Assembly: GCA_022571985.1 (NCBI GenBank)
Contig: JACZWU010000004.1
Span: 64,319 to 128,318, forward strand
DNA length: 64,000 nt
Origin: Candidatus Zixiibacteriota bacterium
Lineage (GTDB): Bacteria; Zixibacteria; MSB-5A5; GN15; FEB-12
Direction of reading: 5' to 3'
Shown here: positions 3-13,112 of the stretch, in pieces
How the letters are laid out: each line of letters starts with the position of its first letter
How positions within the stretch are numbered: the stretch's first letter is position 1
The notes under the pieces: generated by a model
Told to the model about the DNA's origin: nothing
Seen by the model: the letters and a program-made list of their open reading frames with translations, nothing else
The model's database searches: none
Program-made: the position numbers and the translations under genes

Positions 3-1493
3 GTGCTTGTAATTGATCCGGGTGAATGTATTCCGGTAGGAAGAACGCATGATGTCTATATCAATATTGAGACAAATCGTGCAATTGGCGGATTTGATCT
101 GCTGGTCAGTTATGATGCCACGGTGACGTCCTTTAGCAACGCCACCAAAGAAGGCACAGAAATAGACAGTTGGGAGTTTTTTACTTACAGGCTCAACTCA
201 TCATCCTGCGGCAGTGCCTGTCCCTCGGGAACAATTCGACTGACCGGTATTGCTGATATTAATAACGGTGCGGCTCATCCGCCGGTCGAAGCACTATCGC
301 CTAACGGCAGATTTATAAAAATTACTTTCCAGGTTTCCAACAACCAGAACATTGGCGGTTTGTTTTTGCCGATAAACTTTATCTGGTTTGACTGCGGCGA
401 TAATATTTTTAGTGACCCTTCAGGTAACGAACTGTTCATCGACAACAAGATTTATAATGGAGAAGGCATCTTAATCTGGGACGAAGAAGACAGCATAAGT
501 TATCCCGAAAGCAGCAGGCCTCAGAGCATGGGTACGCCGGATTCCTGTATAAATCCTGAAGCTATGACAGCGCCAAGGAGATGTATTGAGTTCTTTAACG
601 GAGGTATTTGTATACTGGATCAGACCTCTTTTAACGACCGGGGCGACATTAACCTTAACTCCGTGCCATATGAAGTTGCGGATGCGGTTGTGTTCACCAA
701 CTATTTCATTTATGGCTTGAGCGCTTTTACTGTCAATATTCCCGGACAGATTGCGGCAACGGATGTCAATGCCGATGGTATCACACTTTCGGTTGCTGAT
801 TTGGTATTACTTATAAGAGTGATTCTTGGCGATGCCGACCCGGTACCAAAACTAAATCCTCATGATCAAGAGCTGCTATTGCAGTTAGTTCGAAGCAAAG
901 ATGGTGTAATTTTGTCTTCAAATTCCTCCAATGGTATCGGCGGCGCTTATCTGGTATTTAAACTTAATTCATCAGAATCAAGCATAGTCCCGGAGCTTAC
1001 CGAAGATGCCGAGCATATGGATCTCCGCTACCACATAGCCGGGGACGAACTTCGCATTCTGGTTTTCAGCATGCAGGGGAATACAATTGCATCAGGCGAT
1101 CGCCAGCTAATAAAATTGCCTGTTGTAAGCGGTCAGCAGCCGGAGCTTATAAAGAGCGAGTTTGCAGACGTAGATGGCCGGCCCTATAAGTCAAGCTCCA
1201 GCGAAATTGAACTTCCTGAAGATTTTGAGCTATATCAGAATTATCCGAATCCGTTTAATCCAAGCACTAACATTAGTTTCTATCTGCCTGAGCAGTCAGA
1301 CTGGAAAATAAGCATATACAATGTAACCGGCGGTCTTGTGAGACAGATATCCGGCTCAGACGAAACCGGGATGGTTGAGGTGCTATGGGATGGCGCTTCC
1401 CGGTCCGGAAATCAGGTCGCCAGCGGCGTTTATTTCTACAGGCTCGAAGCCGGCGATTTTAAGAGAACCCGAAAGATGATGATGCTTAAGTAA
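3..1493 (+). CDS. Secreted cohesin/dockerin-like protein with C-terminal FlgD-Ig/T9SS-type sorting domain (5' partial)
   Basis: Cohesin-like GGFDLLVSYD region; paired dockerin-like Ca-loops GDINLNSVPYEVADAVVF and TDVNADGITLSVADLVLL; C-terminal LYQNYPNPFNPSTNISF...VASGVYFYRL...RKMMMLK. The frame is open at the window edge. Confidence 0.75.
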   Translation: MLVIDPGECIPVGRTHDVYINIETNRAIGGFDLLVSYDATVTSFSNATKEGTEIDSWEFFTYRLNSSSCGSACPSGTIRLTGIADINNGAAHPPVEALSPNGRFIKITFQVSNNQNIGGLFLPINFIWFDCGDNIFSDPSGNELFIDNKIYNGEGILIWDEEDSISYPESSRPQSMGTPDSCINPEAMTAPRRCIEFFNGGICILDQTSFNDRGDINLNSVPYEVADAVVFTNYFIYGLSAFTVNIPGQIAATDVNADGITLSVADLVLLIRVILGDADPVPKLNPHDQELLLQLVRSKDGVILSSNSSNGIGGAYLVFKLNSSESSIVPELTEDAEHMDLRYHIAGDELRILVFSMQGNTIASGDRQLIKLPVVSGQQPELIKSEFADVDGRPYKSSSSEIELPEDFELYQNYPNPFNPSTNISFYLPEQSDWKISIYNVTGGLVRQISGSDETGMVEVLWDGASRSGNQVASGVYFYRLEAGDFKRTRKMMMLK

Positions 1494-2996: not shown

Positions 2997-5900
2997 CTAA
3001 TTATCTTCACTGTTTTTTACCGGAGATTCGACTTTCGGGCTAATTCTATCGACTACCGGCTGTGGAATCGCTTCGTCTGTTTCAGAAGAAATTGTTTTTG
3101 CTGTCTCGTCCGTTTCGTCAATGTAATCCGGGGCTTCCAGCCTGACCTCGCCGGTTTCCGGGTCGACCTGGCTGAACTTGACCGCCACAATCTGAGAAAC
3201 ACCGGGGCTGGACATGGTCACACCATAGAGATTATCTGCAGCTTCCATAGTGATTTTGTTGTGCGTAATAATTATAAACTGGGTGTTGTCTGAGAAGCGA
3301 GCAATCAATTTCAAAAATCGGTGGCAGTTGGCATCGTCTAAAGGCGCGTCTATCTCATCGAGAATACAGTAAGCAGACGGTTTTACCAGGTATAGCGCAA
3401 ACAAGAGTGAGATTGCCGTCAGGGCCCGTTCTCCGCCTGACATCATGGTAATAGCAATAAGTTTTTTGCCGCGGGGGCGGGCGGTAATTTCAATATTTGA
3501 CTCAAGCGGGTCGTTGGGGTTTTCAAGATAAATGCTGGCTTCGCCGCCTTCGAACAATTCAGTGAACAGCATCTGGAAATTATCTTTAACTTTTTCAAAT
3601 GTTTCTTCAAAAAGTGTCCGGGCGGTTTTGTTAATTTTGGTAATGGTGGCCAGGAGATCATCGCGTGCCGCTTCAAGATCGGTAAGCTGCTTTTCCAGAA
3701 ATTCTTTGCGGCTGCTGGTTGACTGATATTCTTCAAGGGCCAGGAGATTGACCGCCCCGAAATTTTTCAATAGCTCTTTTTGACTGGCAAGACGGGTAGC
3801 GGCCTCGTCTTCGGGCATTTCGGGAATGGGGTTCTGGCTTTCAAACTCCCGGATATTTACGTCGTAGTCCTCTTGCATTCGCTCGGTGGTGACACTGAGC
3901 TCGTTTTCGAGAGTGCCCATCTGCATCTCAATTGTGTGACTCTCTTTGCCGAGCTTGTCTTTAACCAGGCGCAGTTCTTTTAGACGCTTCTCAGAACTGA
4001 ATGTCTGTCCCTGAAGTTCATCGAACTTTTGTCTAAGCGTACCCTGGGTTTCAGAGATTTCTGTGCGCGACTCAAAAGTAAGTTTAAGTCTGGTTTCTAG
4101 GTCAGCTGATCTCTTGAGCGAACTTTCTATTTCTTCCTGAGCGTCTTGTATCTCCGTGGATTTTGTTACTATCGTACTGGAAATTTCATCCAGCAGCTCT
4201 TTTGTATGGTTGATTTTGTTGTCGCACTGGTCAATCTGGCTCTGTGTCTCAACTGCTTTGACCTGAAGATTACTCACCAGCGACTGCGATTCTCCGGATA
4301 AGCGCTCTATCTCTTCAAGTTTTTTAGAAGACAAATTTAGTTCATTTACTAAGCTCTGCTTTTGTTCACTCAACTGACCATAGCCAAGATTTAAAGAGTA
4401 TTGTTTTTGCTGCAGTTGCGTTTGTTTTTCGCCGGCCAGCTCGATTTCCTTAGCCAGACGAGAAAGCTCGGTATCTGATAGACGCAGCTCATAATTTAAT
4501 TCATCTATCTGTTTTTGATTAGAGGCGATTTCCCGCTGGTTTGTTTCCAGGCTGCCATTTAGATCGTTAATTGAATGTTCGGCGTCGCTAATCTGCTTTG
4601 CTAAATCGTGTTCGGTTTGTTTCTGGGTCTCAGCTTTGGAATTAAGTCGGTCGATTTGCTCGGAAAGTTCAGCGAGCTGATCTTTACGGCGAAACAGCTG
4701 CAGCGTGTCTGATGAGCCGCCCACAATCGTGTTTCTGGTGTAGAGAAGCCCGTCGGTAGAGACTGCTTTGAAGCCATAGGGGAGGTGCTCCAGAATTGAT
4801 TTGGGGTCGCTGCCGGCTTTGAATACGGCAGTCTGCGACAGAACGGTTTGCATGAGTGGTTTCAAATTTTCAGCTGTCGAAACGAACTCATCAAGCCAGC
4901 CGACGAATCCGGCAGAGTCCAGTTCCGGACGTTTGATCTGAGGATTCAAGTTGCCGGCATCAGGAACAATTAATCCTGCCCGGCCTTTGTTCTCTCTTTT
5001 AAGGCGCTCGATTATCTTTTCTGCACTGTTTTTACTGTCGCAAATGACATAGTGCGAGATATCCCCCAGCGCTGATTCAACCGCTTTTTCCATCCCTGCA
5101 GCCGGTTTGAAGCGGTCCGCGACTGTTCCTTGAATTCCTTCTATTTCATCCTTGAACTTAAGGACTGTCATCACACCGGCGTGGGTGCCTCCGAATGAGT
5201 ATATCAGTTCACTCAAGATTTTCTGCTGCGCCTGACTTGCTTCAATTGAGGCATAGCTCTTGGAAAGTTCTTTGCCGGTCTGCTCAAGTTCGTTTTTCTT
5301 TGTGGCTTGTTCCCGGGTGGTCTGGCTCAACTCAGTCTCTGCCGAGATTCTGCTCTGTGACAGTTCGTCGGCCACGCCGCGCAGTTTTTCCGATTCGGAA
5401 GTTAATTCTGCCTTTTTCTCTGTGAGCTCATTTTTGCTCTTGTTTAATTCTTCAAGGTGAATACTGAGGTCTTCAATCTGAGTCTGGATGTTGACGTCTT
5501 CGGTCTTGCCGGAGGACAACCTGCCCTCCAGTTCAACTAACTTGGAATTTTCACCGTCTTTGGAAGTGCGCATTTCCAAAAGTTGCTTATCAATCAGGGC
5601 TAGTTTGTTTTGGGCTTCTTTGAGGTTGTTTTCAACTGCTTCGTATTCTGCCCTGTGTTCGTTTATCTCGGCGCCGGTATCTACGGCCTGTTCGGAGAGA
5701 GTCTGAGAGCGGAGTTTAAGAGTATCAATTTCGTTTTCATTACGCTCTATCAGGTTAGTTGCGTTAGATTTTTTTTCAGTCAGAACGGAAATTTCTTTTT
5801 CATATTTGTGGGCAGTTTCTGTCGTCTCAAATAATTCGTTGGTTACCCGGCTCAGTTCTTTTTCTATTTCAAGCTGAATTTCCCGTTTGGATTCAACTTC

Positions 5901-7292: not shown

Positions 7293-8222
7293 TTACTGCC
7301 CGCCATCTTTTTTTAAATCGGCATCCTTTTGAGTCTGATGTCTGTCCAGAGTTTCCTGTTTGGTCGTCTTTTCTGCAGGTGGAGAACTGATATCACTGTA
7401 GCTCTGTTTAGTCTGAGCAGTCGGTGCCTGGCTGGTTCTGTTAAAAAACGATTCAATGTTTGTCTGATCTATACGCACTCTTGAGATTCTGCGCGACTCT
7501 TGATCACGAAGATTTACCAGCCGGCCATTGAGCTCTATATCGACCACCGCTGGAATCCCAATTGATACAACCATCCTGTATTTGGCGCTGGCTTCATAAA
7601 CTCTGCCGGGAACAAGTTTACGGAAGATAGCCGTATCACCGTCGGTCATGACCGAACCCCAGCTTTCTTTTTTTGGTATAAGCCGAATCTTGATTTTATC
7701 CGGAGGCAGATACGATGTTTTATCCCAGTCAAAACTGTCAAATTCTGCAAGGCGGTTTTTGTCTATATCTTGAAGGTAATTATCCTGTTCATTTTTTGCA
7801 GTAGAATCCTTAATGAACAGCATATCGATCGCAACGTAGGCCAGAAGCAGAAGAACCAGAATAGCCGCTACTCCCAGCATTCTTCTTAAGGGTTTTTTTT
7901 CTGCTTCAGGATCAATCTCATAGTCGTCTTCTGTTCCAGAGGCTTTCTTATCCTGCGCAGCTTTTTCCATTTCATCTCTTTCAATATCAGACTTGATGGC
8001 ATCGACTGTCATTGAGTAATCTATTCCCAGGAATGTAGAATAGGAGCGTGCAAACAGATTGTAGTAAACTACTGAGGGAAGTTTCGACAGATCACCGCCT
8101 TCAATACCTTCAAGATTCTCAAGAGGTATTTTGAGCCTTGCGCTGAGTTCTACAATATCAAGCTGGCGGCGTTCTCTTTCTTGCCGCAAAACTTTCCCTA
8201 ATTTTTTCTCTACACTATCCAT
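7293..8222 (-). CDS. rodZ: RodZ-like helix-turn-helix membrane protein (DUF4115-type C-terminal domain)
   Basis: N-terminal HTH (LGKVLRQERER...LEGIEGGDLSKLP...FARSYSTFLGID), single TM, C-terminal domain with SIGIPAVVDIELNG. Confidence 0.8.
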   Translation of the reverse strand: MDSVEKKLGKVLRQERERRQLDIVELSARLKIPLENLEGIEGGDLSKLPSVVYYNLFARSYSTFLGIDYSMTVDAIKSDIERDEMEKAAQDKKASGTEDDYEIDPEAEKKPLRRMLGVAAILVLLLLAYVAIDMLFIKDSTAKNEQDNYLQDIDKNRLAEFDSFDWDKTSYLPPDKIKIRLIPKKESWGSVMTDGDTAIFRKLVPGRVYEASAKYRMVVSIGIPAVVDIELNGRLVNLRDQESRRISRVRIDQTNIESFFNRTSQAPTAQTKQSYSDISSPPAEKTTKQETLDRHQTQKDADLKKDGGQ

Positions 8223-9496: not shown

Positions 9497-9823
9497 TTGT
9501 CAAAAGCCTTAGAAGTAACAGATGATTCTTTTGAAGCAGAAGTACTCAAATCCGATACACCGGTTATTGTGGATTTTTGGGCTGAATGGTGCGGCCCCTG
9601 CAAAATGATTGCACCGATTCTGGATGAATTAGCTGAAGAATATGAAGGCCGGGTCAAAATCGCCAAAGTGGATGTTGACTCTAATAATAAAACAGCCGGT
9701 AGATATAATATTTTGTCTATTCCTGCTCTGTTATTCTTCAAAAATGGAGAAGTAGTCGATCAGGTAGTCGGTGCCCTGGGCAAATCGCAATTGACTTCCA
9801 GATTAGAAAAAGTGCTGGCTTAA
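9497..9823 (+). CDS. trxA: Thioredoxin
   Basis: DFWAEWCGPCKMIAP; strong RBS GGAGGAG; TTG start. Confidence 0.97.
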   Translation: MSKALEVTDDSFEAEVLKSDTPVIVDFWAEWCGPCKMIAPILDELAEEYEGRVKIAKVDVDSNNKTAGRYNILSIPALLFFKNGEVVDQVVGALGKSQLTSRLEKVLA

Positions 9824-9841: not shown

Positions 9842-9878
9842 AAAACCGGCCAGGGAACCAATCCCTGCCGGTTTTTTT
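9842..9878 (+). terminator. Intrinsic terminator after trxA
   Basis: AAAACCGGC-c-AGGGA accaa TCCCT-GCCGGTTTTTTT. Confidence 0.8.
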
Positions 9879-9991
9879 ATTATTTTCTAGCAGATGTTTT
9901 CGAGCAAGGAACTTTACAGATGCAAATTGTTTTAATTTATTAGAAGTTTCTATATTATATTGACTTAGCTGAACTTTAATGAAAGAGTATA

Positions 9992-10189
9992 ATGAACTGG
10001 ACTGACATAATATATCTGCTGGTTTTCGCAATCGCCTGGTATCTGCTGATAACCAGGGTTTTTCCAAAGATGGGGCTTGGTGGTGGCTGAGGACCTTCGA
10101 CAGAGTATCTTCAGGTGGAAGATGATAAAAACAGGAAGCAAACTAAGTGCAATGATGAACGTAAAAGCTCTTCAGGAAGAGCTGACTAA
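9992..10189 (+). CDS. Candidate small single-TM selenoprotein (in-frame TGA at 10088-10090 read as Sec); not in the ORF track
   Basis: MNWTDIIYLLVFAIAWYLLITRVFPKMGLGGG-(TGA)-GPSTEYLQVEDDKNRKQTKCNDERKSSSGRAD-TAA; SECIS-like hairpin directly after the TGA. Confidence 0.7.
10106..10124 (+). promoter_or_regulatory. Putative bacterial SECIS element
   Basis: (T)ATCTTC-AGGTG-GAAGAT(G) stem-loop; the loop starts 22 nt after the TGA and has G at loop position 2, consistent with the bacterial SECIS model. Confidence 0.65.
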
Positions 10190-10238: not shown

Positions 10239-11078
10239 ATGCGTTTTAATAATTACAGCGGGGGCGGTGGTTCCCGAAGGCTGAGCATTGGCCCCGGGGC
10301 AGTATCTCCATTCATCAAACTGATGCTGATTAGCAACTTAGCGATATTCATGATTCAGTCGCTGGCTAACTATCCTCTAAGTGATTTTTTGGGTCTGACT
10401 CCGGCTAGATTTTTTGCGGAATTTCCAAACCTGCTTTTTCAGCCATTTACTTACATGTTTTTGCATGCAGATTTTTGGCACATCTTTTTTAATATGTTTG
10501 CTTTATGGATGTTTGGAACAGAAATAGAATTCACCTGGGGGAAAAAGGCCTTTGCAAAATTCTATATTTTGGCCGGTCTGTCCGGGGCGGTTCTGACGCT
10601 TATTTTTCAGCCAGAACTGCCATATCCTGTTATAGGGGCTTCAGGAGCAATTTACGGTGTTTTGATAGCTTACTGGCTGTTGTTTCCACATAGATACCTC
10701 TACATTTATTTCTTGTTCCCTGTCAAAGTAAAATGGGCAATTCCTGGCTTTATGATTTTGGGCTTTATGGCTGGCGGCGGAAATATTGCGCATTTTGCTC
10801 ATCTTGGGGGTGCAATTTTTGGACTTATATTTGTCAAAGCTGACTGGAGAATTGCCAGATTTGGAAATATGCTCAAAAAAATTCGGCTCAAAAAACAAGA
10901 GGCAAAATTCGAGAAGAACCGCCTTAAAGCAGAAGATACCATGAAACGGGTTGATGAGATTCTTGATAAAATAAGCGAAGTTGGTATTGATAATATCTCT
11001 CGCGAAGATAGAAAATTCCTTGAAGACACCTCTTCTCATATGTCCGGAGAAAAGAGCTCCGACGAAACAATACAATGA
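10239..11078 (+). CDS. Rhomboid family intramembrane serine protease
   Basis: FLHADFWHIFFNMFALW, catalytic GASG and AHFAHLGG; C-terminal VDEILDKISEVGIDNIS helical tail. Confidence 0.93.
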   Translation: MRFNNYSGGGGSRRLSIGPGAVSPFIKLMLISNLAIFMIQSLANYPLSDFLGLTPARFFAEFPNLLFQPFTYMFLHADFWHIFFNMFALWMFGTEIEFTWGKKAFAKFYILAGLSGAVLTLIFQPELPYPVIGASGAIYGVLIAYWLLFPHRYLYIYFLFPVKVKWAIPGFMILGFMAGGGNIAHFAHLGGAIFGLIFVKADWRIARFGNMLKKIRLKKQEAKFEKNRLKAEDTMKRVDEILDKISEVGIDNISREDRKFLEDTSSHMSGEKSSDETIQ

Positions 11079-12368: not shown

Positions 12369-13112
12369 ATGTTTGATCAGCCAACCATAGAAATTCCAAC
12401 TGCGATATTTGCCGGGTTCCTGTCATTTATATCCCCCTGTGTCTTGCCCCTTATTCCGGGCTACTTGTCTTTTATTTCCGGCGTTTCAATTGAAGACTTG
12501 TCCTCAAAGGAAAAATCAAAAGAACATATGTTTCGGGTTGTCATTAACACGTTCTTTTTTGTGATCGGGTTTTCTCTGGTATTTATTCTTTTGGGAGCAA
12601 CAGCAACCTGGCTGGGTGAAATGCTGCAGCAATACATTGGCTGGTTTAACAAAGTGGCCGGCGTCATGGTGTTTTTGTTTGGTCTGCATGTGGCCGGAGT
12701 GTTTAAGATAAAAGCTCTCAATTTTGAAAAGAGATTTAATACTCGCAGCAAAAAAATGGGGATAATCGGTTCTGTCGTTATTGGTATTGCTTTTGCATTT
12801 GGATGGACGCCCTGCATTGGTCCGATTCTTGGCACAATTTTGACCCTGGCCGCTCAGCAAGACTCGGTCACTTCCGGCGTCATACTTCTGGCTTTCTATT
12901 CAGCCGGACTGGGTGTGCCGTTTATACTTACTGCTCTTTTGTTCAACTATTTAATTGGTGCTTTTGGTTTTATCAAACGGCATTTCAGAGCTGTTGAGAT
13001 AATCTCGGGCGGTTTGCTGATGATAGTCGGCGTGTTAATATTCTTTAACTTACTGGTGGTCATCTCAAACTTTATGTTAGATTTATTCCCTGCCTTGCAA
13101 AATGTCGGCTAA
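12369..13112 (+). CDS. ccdA: Cytochrome c biogenesis / thiol-disulfide transporter CcdA
   Basis: SFISPCVLPLIPGY and FGWTPCIGPILG; about 6 TM helices. Confidence 0.93.
   Translation: MFDQPTIEIPTAIFAGFLSFISPCVLPLIPGYLSFISGVSIEDLSSKEKSKEHMFRVVINTFFFVIGFSLVFILLGATATWLGEMLQQYIGWFNKVAGVMVFLFGLHVAGVFKIKALNFEKRFNTRSKKMGIIGSVVIGIAFAFGWTPCIGPILGTILTLAAQQDSVTSGVILLAFYSAGLGVPFILTALLFNYLIGAFGFIKRHFRAVEIISGGLLMIVGVLIFFNLLVVISNFMLDLFPALQNVG

What the first reader, a model, noticed from the sequence alone, without database searches (positions are those of the whole stretch)
9992..10189. Hidden small membrane selenoprotein candidate: GGG-U-G motif with a SECIS-like hairpin
Seen: ATG 9992 opens a hydrophobic helix (IIYLLVFAIAWYLLI), then RVFPKMGLGGG and an in-frame TGA as codon 33. 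The frame stays open for 32 more hydrophilic codons to TAA, giving 65 aa with one Cys at position 53. The hairpin ATCTTC-AGGTG-GAAGAT has its loop 22 nt after the TGA with G at loop position 2. A second related hairpin, AGCTCTTCAGGAAGAGCT, lies at 10166-10183. Known: bacterial SECIS elements sit immediately 3' of the UGA with an apical-loop G, and the E. coli fdhF element contains CAGGU. Eukaryotic SelK/SelS are single-TM proteins with Sec in a Gly-Gly-U-Gly context. Inference: this is a Sec-containing membrane microprotein that ORF callers miss. Basic residues after the TM suggest the Sec faces the cytoplasm.
Basis: partly seen in the sequence, partly recalled or inferred. Interest (0 to 1): 0.82.

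Follow-up and report, generated by a model that had tools for sequence, protein, structure and literature searches.

The report
Unannotated small membrane selenoprotein candidate
A 65-codon gene with an in-frame UGA, lying between a thioredoxin and a rhomboid protease gene in a Zixibacteria genome, belongs to a large undescribed family of one-helix membrane proteins whose key residue is cysteine in some members and UGA, most likely read as selenocysteine, in others.

Summary
In this window alone the hairpin is unremarkable: it ranks 14th of 15 similar TGA-plus-hairpin sites.

In 22 other DNA loci (Zixibacteria genomes and unbinned metagenome contigs) the same small ORF recurs. All 22 intact copies, the window's included, have TGA at this codon, whereas the true end of the frame varies among TAA, TAG and TGA.

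A 6-8 bp hairpin follows 13-16 nt after the TGA. It shows compensatory changes at three pairs and a conserved GG loop. Downstream codons show selection at the amino-acid level: a conserved Ser/Ala-Cys with synonymous codon switches, and strong three-base periodicity in the tail.

Database gene calls for the family mostly stop at this codon (137 of the best 150 cluster representatives). A large sister group (118 of 120 listed) has Cys at exactly this position, in the motif T-[U/C]-M-S-G-x-C. Some members are fused in frame to a thioredoxin domain.

The family is absent from Pfam, NCBIfam and a 2026 catalogue of 119 prokaryotic selenoprotein families.

Not shown: selA/B/C/D in the source genome (untestable here) and any protein-level evidence. 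The second hairpin and the SelK/SelS likeness are not supported beyond analogy.

The parts
9992..10189 (+). Whole recoded ORF: 65 codons including one in-frame UGA, plus the TAA stop
   Evidence: Orthologues with the same layout occur in 22 other loci.
10004..10054 (+). Predicted single transmembrane helix (about residues 5-21, DIIYLLVFAIAWYLLIT). The N-side is acidic and the C-side basic, which predicts N-out/C-in.
   Evidence: Hydropathy peaks at 2.7. The segment is conserved in 469 cluster representatives. The topology is inferred from the positive-inside rule.
10055..10087 (+). Conserved juxtamembrane motif RVFPKMGLGGG (family consensus [KR]-V-[FL]-P-[RK]-F-G-V-x-[ST])
   Evidence: Pro25 and Gly28 are invariant.
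10088..10090 (+). In-frame UGA, proposed selenocysteine codon (residue 33)
   Evidence: TGA in all 22 intact copies checked at DNA level, this one included. It aligns with an invariant Cys in 118 of 120 listed full-length homologues. TGA is an ordinary stop for 12 of 50 window genes.
10107..10123 (+). SECIS-like hairpin ATCTTC/AGGTG/GAAGAT, starting 16 nt after the UGA, with the loop at +22
   Evidence: The structure is conserved with compensatory changes at 3 pairs, and 0 of 500 shuffles reach the covariation score. The loop GG is nearly invariant, including the third position of a Pro codon. This copy is the weakest of its clade (A·G closing mismatch, -5.1 to -5.9 kcal/mol).
10091..10186 (+). 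Hydrophilic C-terminal tail translated only if the UGA is decoded (GPSTEYLQVEDDKNRKQTKCNDERKSSSGRAD)
   Evidence: Pooled tails of 19 relatives show coding periodicity: chi-square 80.9 against a maximum of 39 in 1000 open-frame-conditioned shuffles. The tail sequence evolves fast.
10166..10183 (+). Second palindrome AGCTCTTCAGGAAGAGCT inside the tail; function unknown and probably incidental
   Evidence: Found only in the L001-L004 clade. It keeps 6 bp in L003 and L004 and 4 bp in L002. On the minus strand it scores as terminator-like.
9497..9823 (+). Thioredoxin gene (WCGPC), the conserved upstream neighbour
   Evidence: Pfam assignment. It lies directly upstream in 19 of the 20 relatives whose upstream DNA is held; the exception is the decayed L005. 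Family members are fused to a Trx domain elsewhere.
9846..9880 (+). Terminator-like hairpin plus T-run after trxA, so the small ORF likely starts a new transcript together with the rhomboid gene
   Evidence: and the sequence.
10239..11078 (+). Rhomboid-family intramembrane protease gene, the conserved downstream neighbour
12369..13112 (+). CcdA/DsbD-type transmembrane thiol-disulfide electron-transfer gene in the same conserved block

Best explanation
The ORF 9992-10189 encodes a 65-residue membrane protein with one transmembrane helix. Its codon 33 (UGA) is recoded, most likely to selenocysteine.

Proposed mechanism (inferred, following the established bacterial pathway): as the ribosome nears the UGA, the hairpin 16 nt downstream is bound by SelB carrying Sec-tRNA(Sec). 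Sec is inserted and translation continues for 32 more codons. If decoding fails, a 32-residue helix-only peptide is released.

The helix is predicted to place the N-terminus outside. The Sec would then sit about ten residues from the cytoplasmic face, followed by a disordered, charged tail.

The gene belongs to a large unnamed family with the motif ...P-R-F-G-V-x-T-[U/C]-M-S-G-x-C. In this family a selenol or thiol, usually paired with a Cys five residues later, is the conserved functional centre. The likeliest role is a membrane-tethered redox or metal-binding site that works with thioredoxin.

Shown here: conservation of the UGA, of the downstream frame and of the hairpin; Cys homologues at the same site; linkage to thioredoxin. 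Inferred: that the inserted residue is Sec, the topology, and the biochemical role.
For: (1) All 22 intact copies checked at DNA level, the window's included, have TGA here. The real ends of the frames vary: TAA 10, TAG 7, TGA 3. Window genes end in TGA only 24% of the time.
(2) Selection acts on the protein after the UGA. In 13 of 20 copies a Cys lies five codons later, spelled TGC or TGT. The residue before it is Ser encoded by either AGT or TCN. Most copies have no start codon between the TGA and that Cys. The one indel in the spacer is 3 nt long. Tails show three-base periodicity, with 0 of 1000 controls reaching the observed value.
(3) Hairpin: three pairs show double compensatory changes. 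A synonymous Leu CUU/CUC change is coupled to Glu/Gly on the other arm. The covariation score is 0.39 against 0.20 in shuffles, 0 of 500 reaching it. L090 has a wholly different stem sequence at the same place. Geometry fits the published bacterial SECIS model: loop 3-5 nt beginning G-G/U, stem 6-8 bp, 19-23 nt from UGA to loop (criteria from PMC13188914).
(4) Cys/UGA pairs: 118 of 120 listed full-length homologues have Cys at this site. For example GIST-C-MSGSC (P0110) matches GVGT-UGA-MSGSC (L090), and both sit in the same neighbourhood of a YgaP-like TM gene plus cytochrome bd oxidase.
(5) 137 of the best 150 cluster representatives end exactly at this codon. One 'W' form is really TGA translated under code 4.
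(6) Thioredoxin link: trxA lies directly upstream in 19 of 20 relatives with upstream DNA. An in-frame fusion of the small protein to a Trx domain occurs in three independent assemblies.
Against: Sec machinery (selA, selB, selC, selD) was not found in the window or within 10 kb on either side.

The window's own hairpin is weak (-5.1 to -5.9 kcal/mol, A·G mismatch) and unremarkable within the window.

This clade has lost the second Cys of the family motif.

Two of four Cys-form genes also carry a hairpin at a similar position, and one of them meets the loop rule. Hairpin presence therefore does not separate Sec forms cleanly from Cys forms.

There is no match to any Rfam SECIS family.

L005 has TGG at the site, though in a copy that is frame-shifted, lacks a start codon and has lost trxA.

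There are no protein-level data.
Confidence: 0.8

Rival explanations
1. The UGA is a genuine stop and the product is only the 32-residue transmembrane peptide. The hairpin would then be an mRNA element with another role (stability, processing, or control of the rhomboid gene), and the downstream similarity a relic of an ancestral Cys form.
For: Gene callers produce exactly this product in 137 of 150 representatives. The open frame after the hairpin is no longer than chance. Sec machinery is unverified. Some Cys-form genes also have a hairpin there.
Against: The family's most conserved motif ([U/C]-MSGxC) would be cut off. Yet it stays in frame across deep divergence, with synonymous Cys codons and Ser AGT/TCN switches. 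The stop would have to stay TGA in every intact copy while ordinary stops vary. The tails show coding periodicity.
Confidence: 0.07
2. The UGA is decoded without selenium. This could be hairpin-assisted near-cognate read-through (Trp) or a UGA-reading tRNA that inserts Cys. It would give the full-length protein with no Sec.
For: L005 carries TGG. A gene caller using code 4 produced sensible full-length 'W' proteins. Sec machinery is not shown. One R form exists (P0145).
Against: L005 is a decayed copy. At least one 'W' protein is TGA in the DNA. The homologous residue is Cys in 118 of 120, the chemical equivalent of Sec and not of Trp. The hairpin matches the SelB-type SECIS geometry. The genome uses TGA as an ordinary stop.
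Confidence: 0.07
3. The window copy, and its four-member clade, is a decaying member of the family: still recognisable but no longer efficiently recoded.
For: It has the weakest hairpin of the set, has lost the second Cys, and has a fast-evolving tail.
Against: All four clade members keep the start codon, the TGA, the hairpin position, the same frame and the same stop. The N-terminal 32 residues differ at only 3-4 positions. The upstream 40 nt are almost invariant.
Confidence: 0.05

Closest known systems
Bacterial selenoprotein genes with an in-ORF SECIS (fdhF type; bSECIS consensus model of Zhang and Gladyshev as summarised in PMC13188914)
   Same: An in-frame UGA is followed within 16-37 nt by a small stem-loop whose apical loop begins G-G/U. 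Cys-containing homologues align with the UGA. Coding sequence is conserved downstream.
   Different: The protein family is not among the 119 catalogued families or subfamilies and matches no NCBIfam or Pfam model. It is a 50-75-residue membrane-anchored peptide rather than a soluble thioredoxin-fold or metalloenzyme domain. The Sec-related motif is U-x4-C, or U alone in this clade, not UxxC or CxxU.
Eukaryotic SELENOK / SELENOS
   Same: Small proteins with one N-terminal membrane helix, a cytosolic Gly/Pro- and charge-rich disordered tail, and a single Sec in a Gly-rich context (my own knowledge of these proteins).
   Different: No detectable sequence relationship: no Pfam hit. The Sec lies next to the membrane rather than penultimate at the C-terminus. 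The SECIS lies inside the ORF, as in bacteria, not in a 3' UTR. This is analogy only.
FeoB-associated Cys-rich membrane protein (Pfam PF12669)
   Same: An N-terminal helix followed by basic residues and a Gly/Cys-rich stretch. There is a weak hit when U is written as C.
   Different: The score is 13.2 bits against a cut-off of 27 (E 0.1). Only the four window-clade sequences hit, and none of the Cys forms do. There is no feoB in the neighbourhood.
Membrane-anchored thioredoxin-family proteins and Trx partners
   Same: Family members are fused in frame to a TrxA-like WCGPC domain (P0308, P0380). The Zixibacteria genes always follow trxA and lie near ccdA.
   Different: The small protein has no thioredoxin fold itself. 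Whether it is a substrate, an anchor or a redox relay is unknown.

Membership tests
Bacterial selenoprotein gene (Sec-UGA recoding) | In-frame UGA conserved at the same codon in orthologues | tested here: met
   TGA in all 22 intact copies. The terminal stops of the same frames vary.
Bacterial selenoprotein gene (Sec-UGA recoding) | Homologues with Cys aligned to the UGA, with conserved flanks on both sides | tested here: met
   118 of 120 listed full-length homologues have Cys there, in the motif T-C-MSGxC against T-UGA-MSGxC.
Bacterial selenoprotein gene (Sec-UGA recoding) | Protein-coding conservation downstream of the UGA | tested here: met
   Synonymous Cys and Ser codon variation, a 3-nt indel, and tail periodicity with 0 of 1000 controls reaching it.
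Bacterial selenoprotein gene (Sec-UGA recoding) | [quoted passage not shown] | tested here: inconclusive
   Family: geometry is met in 22 of 23 copies and 14 of 23 reach -7.5 as a bare hairpin. Covariation supports the stem. Window copy: geometry met, but energy is -5.1 to -5.9 locally and -8.2 in a 60-nt fold.
Bacterial selenoprotein gene (Sec-UGA recoding) | selA, selB, selC (tRNA-Sec) and selD present in the same genome | not testable with these tools
   None in the window or within 10 kb either side. There is no tRNA of any kind in the 19 related loci scanned. The literature held says nothing on Sec in Zixibacteria.
Bacterial selenoprotein gene (Sec-UGA recoding) | Selenium demonstrated in the protein (75Se labelling or mass spectrometry) | not testable with these tools
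   This needs an experiment.
Rfam SECIS families | Covariance-model match at or near the gathering score | tested here: not met
   No SECIS family was matched even at E up to 10 in the window region or E up to 1 in ten relatives. Rfam's bacterial SECIS models are, as I recall (not checked here), lineage-specific, so this says little.
FeoB-associated Cys-rich membrane protein (PF12669) | Pfam gathering score of 27 bits | tested here: not met
   13.2 bits, E 0.11. Only 4 of 19 members hit, and 0 of 8 Cys or L090-type forms.
Catalogued prokaryotic selenoprotein families (119 in PMC13188914 Table 1, most with NCBIfam or Pfam models) | Match to the family's model or Sec motif | tested here: not met
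   No NCBIfam or Pfam hit for Sec forms (U written as C) or for Cys forms. No listed family has a U-x4-C membrane-peptide architecture. The words 'membrane' and 'transmembrane' are absent from the BSepDB paper, and 'transmembrane' and 'membrane protein' from the review.
SELENOK/SELENOS | Sequence homology and a C-terminal penultimate Sec | tested here: not met
   No Pfam match. The Sec is residue 33 of 65.

The most novel reading that the evidence does not exclude
This would be the first recognised family of bacterial membrane-anchored micro-selenoproteins. It is widespread (hundreds of 50%-identity clusters, in Zixibacteria and at least one other, untyped lineage whose gene context matches the Planctomycetota Cys forms), and many lineages carry the Sec form. 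It would act as a thioredoxin-coupled selenol/thiol site at the cytoplasmic face of the membrane, a functional analogue of eukaryotic SELENOK/SELENOS that arose independently. A further twist remains possible: the gene may yield two products, a 32-residue helix alone or the full protein, according to selenium supply, and so act as a selenium-dependent switch next to a rhomboid protease.
Probability: 0.3. Interest if true: 0.8.

Novelty: new member of a known kind. Interest (0 to 1): 0.68.

Why it matters
If confirmed, this adds a widespread family to the prokaryotic selenoproteome. Standard pipelines have missed it for structural reasons. The calls are 28-32 residues long, and Cys-pair searches start from annotated proteins that are themselves unnamed.

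It would give Zixibacteria a selenium requirement that has not been reported.

It would also provide a small, tractable model of a membrane-tethered Sec/Cys redox site, tied by gene order and by gene fusion to thioredoxin. Its architecture resembles eukaryotic SELENOK/SELENOS.

There is a practical lesson too. About 90% of the public protein entries for this family are truncated at the UGA, and some are mistranslated with Trp through a wrong choice of genetic code.

Tried and rejected
- **Single-sequence significance.** A scan of all window TGA codons for open flanks plus a SECIS-like hairpin showed the finding is not special on its own.
- **Length of the open frame after the TGA.** Frame 0 totalled 599 codons and frame +1 totalled 974, so this is not informative. 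I replaced it with codon-level and periodicity tests.
- **Blind search for other UGA/Cys pairs in all held loci.** It was swamped by conserved shadow frames. A cleaner tblastn of the neighbouring genes found none.
- **Sec machinery.** No tRNA in the window or in 19 relatives. No sel genes within 10 kb either side of the window. Five literature searches gave nothing on Zixibacteria (and supplements 44-46). A SelA protein search hoping to recognise Zixibacteria contigs by their lengths failed: it is capped at 8000 candidates and 120 rows, all Enterobacteria.
- **Rfam.** No SECIS match.
- **Metagenome scan with a broad alignment.** With a narrower one it gave only 4 loci.
- **FeoB-associated family.** Rejected on score.
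- **PDB sequence search.** Nothing.
- **Hairpin absent from Cys forms.** Only partly true: 2 of 4 lack one, and one of the others meets the loop rule. I do not use it as a discriminator.
- **The TGG copy (L005) as evidence for Trp read-through.** Rejected, because that copy is frame-shifted, has no start codon and has lost trxA.
- **The second hairpin as a related functional element.** Not supported outside the four closest relatives.

Full report
**What is in the window.**
- ATG at 9992 opens MNWTDIIYLLVFAIAWYLLITRVFPKMGLGGG.
- Codon 33 is TGA (10088-10090).
- The frame then runs 32 more codons (GPSTEYLQVEDDKNRKQTKCNDERKSSSGRAD) to TAA at 10187-10189.
- The hairpin ATCTTC/AGGTG/GAAGAT occupies 10107-10123.
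- A second palindrome lies at 10166-10183.
- The ORF sits between a thioredoxin gene (9497-9823, followed by a terminator-like hairpin and T-run) and a rhomboid protease gene (10239-11078). A response-regulator gene and a CcdA/DsbD-type gene follow.
- The window comes from a 252-kb metagenome scaffold. Its closest relatives are Zixibacteria MAGs.
- The genome uses the standard code: 12 of 50 long ORFs end in TGA, 23 in TAA and 15 in TAG.

**Is it more than chance?** Not from this sequence alone.
- Among TGA codons in the window with open flanks, 15 are followed by a hairpin with a G in the first two loop positions at -5 kcal/mol or better. This one ranks 14th.
- Its bare hairpin is -5.1 to -5.9 kcal/mol, short of the -7.5 cut-off in the published bacterial SECIS model. 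A 60-nt fold reaches -8.2 (model criteria from PMC13188914).
- The open frame after the hairpin is about as long as chance predicts.

**Comparative evidence for recoding.** I fetched DNA around rhomboid relatives and around database hits. This gave 22 further loci with the same small ORF: 15 in Zixibacteria-type genomes, 4 from a metagenome scan and 3 from protein look-ups.
- All 22 intact copies, the window's included, have TGA at the same codon. The true ends of the same frames are TAA (10), TAG (7) and TGA (3).
- The exception, L005, has TGG. That copy is frame-shifted, has no start codon and has lost the upstream trxA, so it looks decayed.
- Just after the TGA, 13 of 20 copies encode x4-Cys. 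The Cys is spelled TGC or TGT, and the preceding Ser is encoded by either AGT or TCN. Most have no possible start codon between the TGA and that Cys. The conserved residues can therefore be made only by reading through the TGA.
- The only indel in the spacer is 3 nt long.
- The pooled tails beyond the hairpin (329 codons from 19 non-redundant copies) show strong three-base periodicity. Chi-square is 80.9. Shuffles conditioned on an open frame average 11 and never exceed 39 in 1000 trials. The 45 nt after the tails' stop codons show none.

**The hairpin.** It starts 16 nt after the TGA (13 nt in three copies: L006, L090 and L091). It has 6-8 pairs and a 3-5-nt loop reading GGN, NGGUN or CGGGU.
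- Three pairs show double compensatory changes: AU/GC, UA/CG/GC and UA/CG. None of 500 shuffles reaches the observed covariation score, and slid registers collapse.
- One covarying pair couples a synonymous Leu change (CUU/CUC) with a Glu/Gly change on the other arm. The loop G is the third base of a Pro codon that is always CCG where the residue is Pro. Together these show selection on the RNA, not only on the peptide.
- In L090, which lies in a different genomic context, the stem sequence is unrelated (GCGCGG/UGGAU/CCGCGC) but sits at the same place.
- The geometry fits the bSECIS model: loop 3-9 nt with G then G/U, stem 4-16 bp, 16-37 nt from the UGA.
- No Rfam SECIS family matches.

**Cys homologues and the size of the family.**
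- A profile of the N-terminal 31 residues was searched against 1.84 billion cluster representatives. It found 469 at E of 0.001 or better. Of the best 150, 137 end exactly at this codon. That is what a gene caller produces at an unrecognised Sec codon.
- The longer ones include Cys forms. A profile of those found 483 proteins, and 118 of the 120 listed have Cys at exactly the TGA position. The consensus is W-[IF]-V-L-N-R-W-V-L-P-W-F-G-V-[PS]-T-C-M-S-G-x-C.
- The pair GIST-C-MSGSC (P0110) and GVGT-UGA-MSGSC (L090) even shares its neighbours: a YgaP-like TM gene and cytochrome bd oxidase.
- The few named Cys forms come from Planctomycetota.
- One 'W' form is TGA in the DNA, translated under code 4 by the gene caller.
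- The hairpin does not separate the two forms cleanly. Of four Cys-form genes, two have none or only a weak one. The other two do have one at a similar place, and one of these meets the loop rule. These may be relics or effects of GC-rich sequence.

**What it probably does.**
- Hydropathy and charge distribution (acidic N-side, basic C-side) predict one helix with the N-terminus outside and the tail in the cytoplasm. This is an inference.
- The conserved centre of the family is [U/C]-x4-C, about ten residues from the membrane.
- In Zixibacteria the gene follows trxA directly in 19 of the 20 relatives with upstream DNA, within a trxA / small ORF / rhomboid / response regulator block that often includes ccdA.
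- Elsewhere the small protein is fused in frame to a TrxA-like WCGPC domain. This is confirmed in three independent assemblies, next to another thioredoxin-like gene and an ArsR-type regulator.
- I therefore favour a membrane-tethered selenol/thiol redox or metal-binding site served by thioredoxin.
- The window's clade has lost the second Cys and has an extra Gly before the Sec (GGG-U-G), so it would act as a lone selenol.
- A role as rhomboid substrate is possible but untested.

**Comparison with what is known.**
- The mechanism is that of ordinary bacterial Sec recoding. The protein family is not known.
- It has no Pfam or NCBIfam model for either form and no PDB relative.
- It does not appear among the 119 families and subfamilies in a 2026 catalogue of prokaryotic selenoproteins.
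- The weak similarity to FeoB-associated Cys-rich proteins fails the family threshold.
- The likeness to SELENOK/SELENOS is one of architecture only.

**What is missing.** I could not test whether the source genome, or any Zixibacteria genome, has selA, selB, tRNA-Sec and selD.
- None lies in the window or within 10 kb either side.
- This is the main reason confidence stays at 0.8.
- No protein-level evidence exists.

**Verdict.** It is a new family within a known kind of system. Interest is fairly high for selenium biology and for small-protein annotation.

Noticed in passing
P0308, P0380, P0369; L096:2207-2698, L097, L098: An in-frame fusion of the small TM-CMSGxC protein to a TrxA-like WCGPC domain (163 aa). 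It is present in three independent assemblies, flanked by another thioredoxin-like gene and an ArsR-type HTH regulator.
   Followed up: partly
P0320 (133 aa); L092:4650-4907: One protein has a zf-HC2 anti-sigma domain fused N-terminally to the small TM protein. In L092 a separate zf-HC2 gene lies 93 nt upstream of the Cys-form gene. If the fusion is real it would argue for the opposite membrane topology.
   Followed up: no
L090:325-2208 and L092:5001-8113: Outside Zixibacteria the family sits in a different conserved block: small protein, then a YgaP-like TM (DUF2892) protein with a conserved NWCP motif, then cytochrome bd oxidase subunit I.
   Followed up: partly
L005:2760-2960: This copy has TGG instead of TGA, a frameshift in the N-terminal helix, no start codon and no trxA upstream, yet the hairpin is intact. 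It is probably a decaying copy.
   Followed up: yes
L007 and L014 (between trxA and the rhomboid gene): Two Zixibacteria-type loci keep trxA and the rhomboid gene but have no small ORF between them. The gene is therefore not universal in the phylum, which makes these useful controls for a test of the Sec trait.
   Followed up: no
window 9950-9991: The roughly 40 nt upstream of the start codon (TCTATATTATATTGACTTAGCTGAACTTTAA.GA.AGAGT) are almost invariant in the four close relatives, although the coding region differs by about 9%. L002 has a 9-nt insertion just before the ATG. This is probably a promoter or 5' leader element.
   Followed up: no
P0021/L093:239-421; also P0042, P0160: Some public protein entries for this family show Trp at the Sec site because the gene caller chose genetic code 4 for a short contig. 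The DNA of P0021 has TGA.
   Followed up: partly
L003, response-regulator gene (about 3850-5040): The orthologue of the window's response-regulator gene has an in-frame stop (NLPLDPND*LSKINNMA) where the relatives have Leu. This is either a pseudogene or an assembly error.
   Followed up: no
window 3-1493 (continues upstream; L086:11490-20915): The window opens inside the 3' end of a gene for a 3949-residue protein with PKD/cadherin-like repeats and a Por secretion (T9SS) tail.
   Followed up: no
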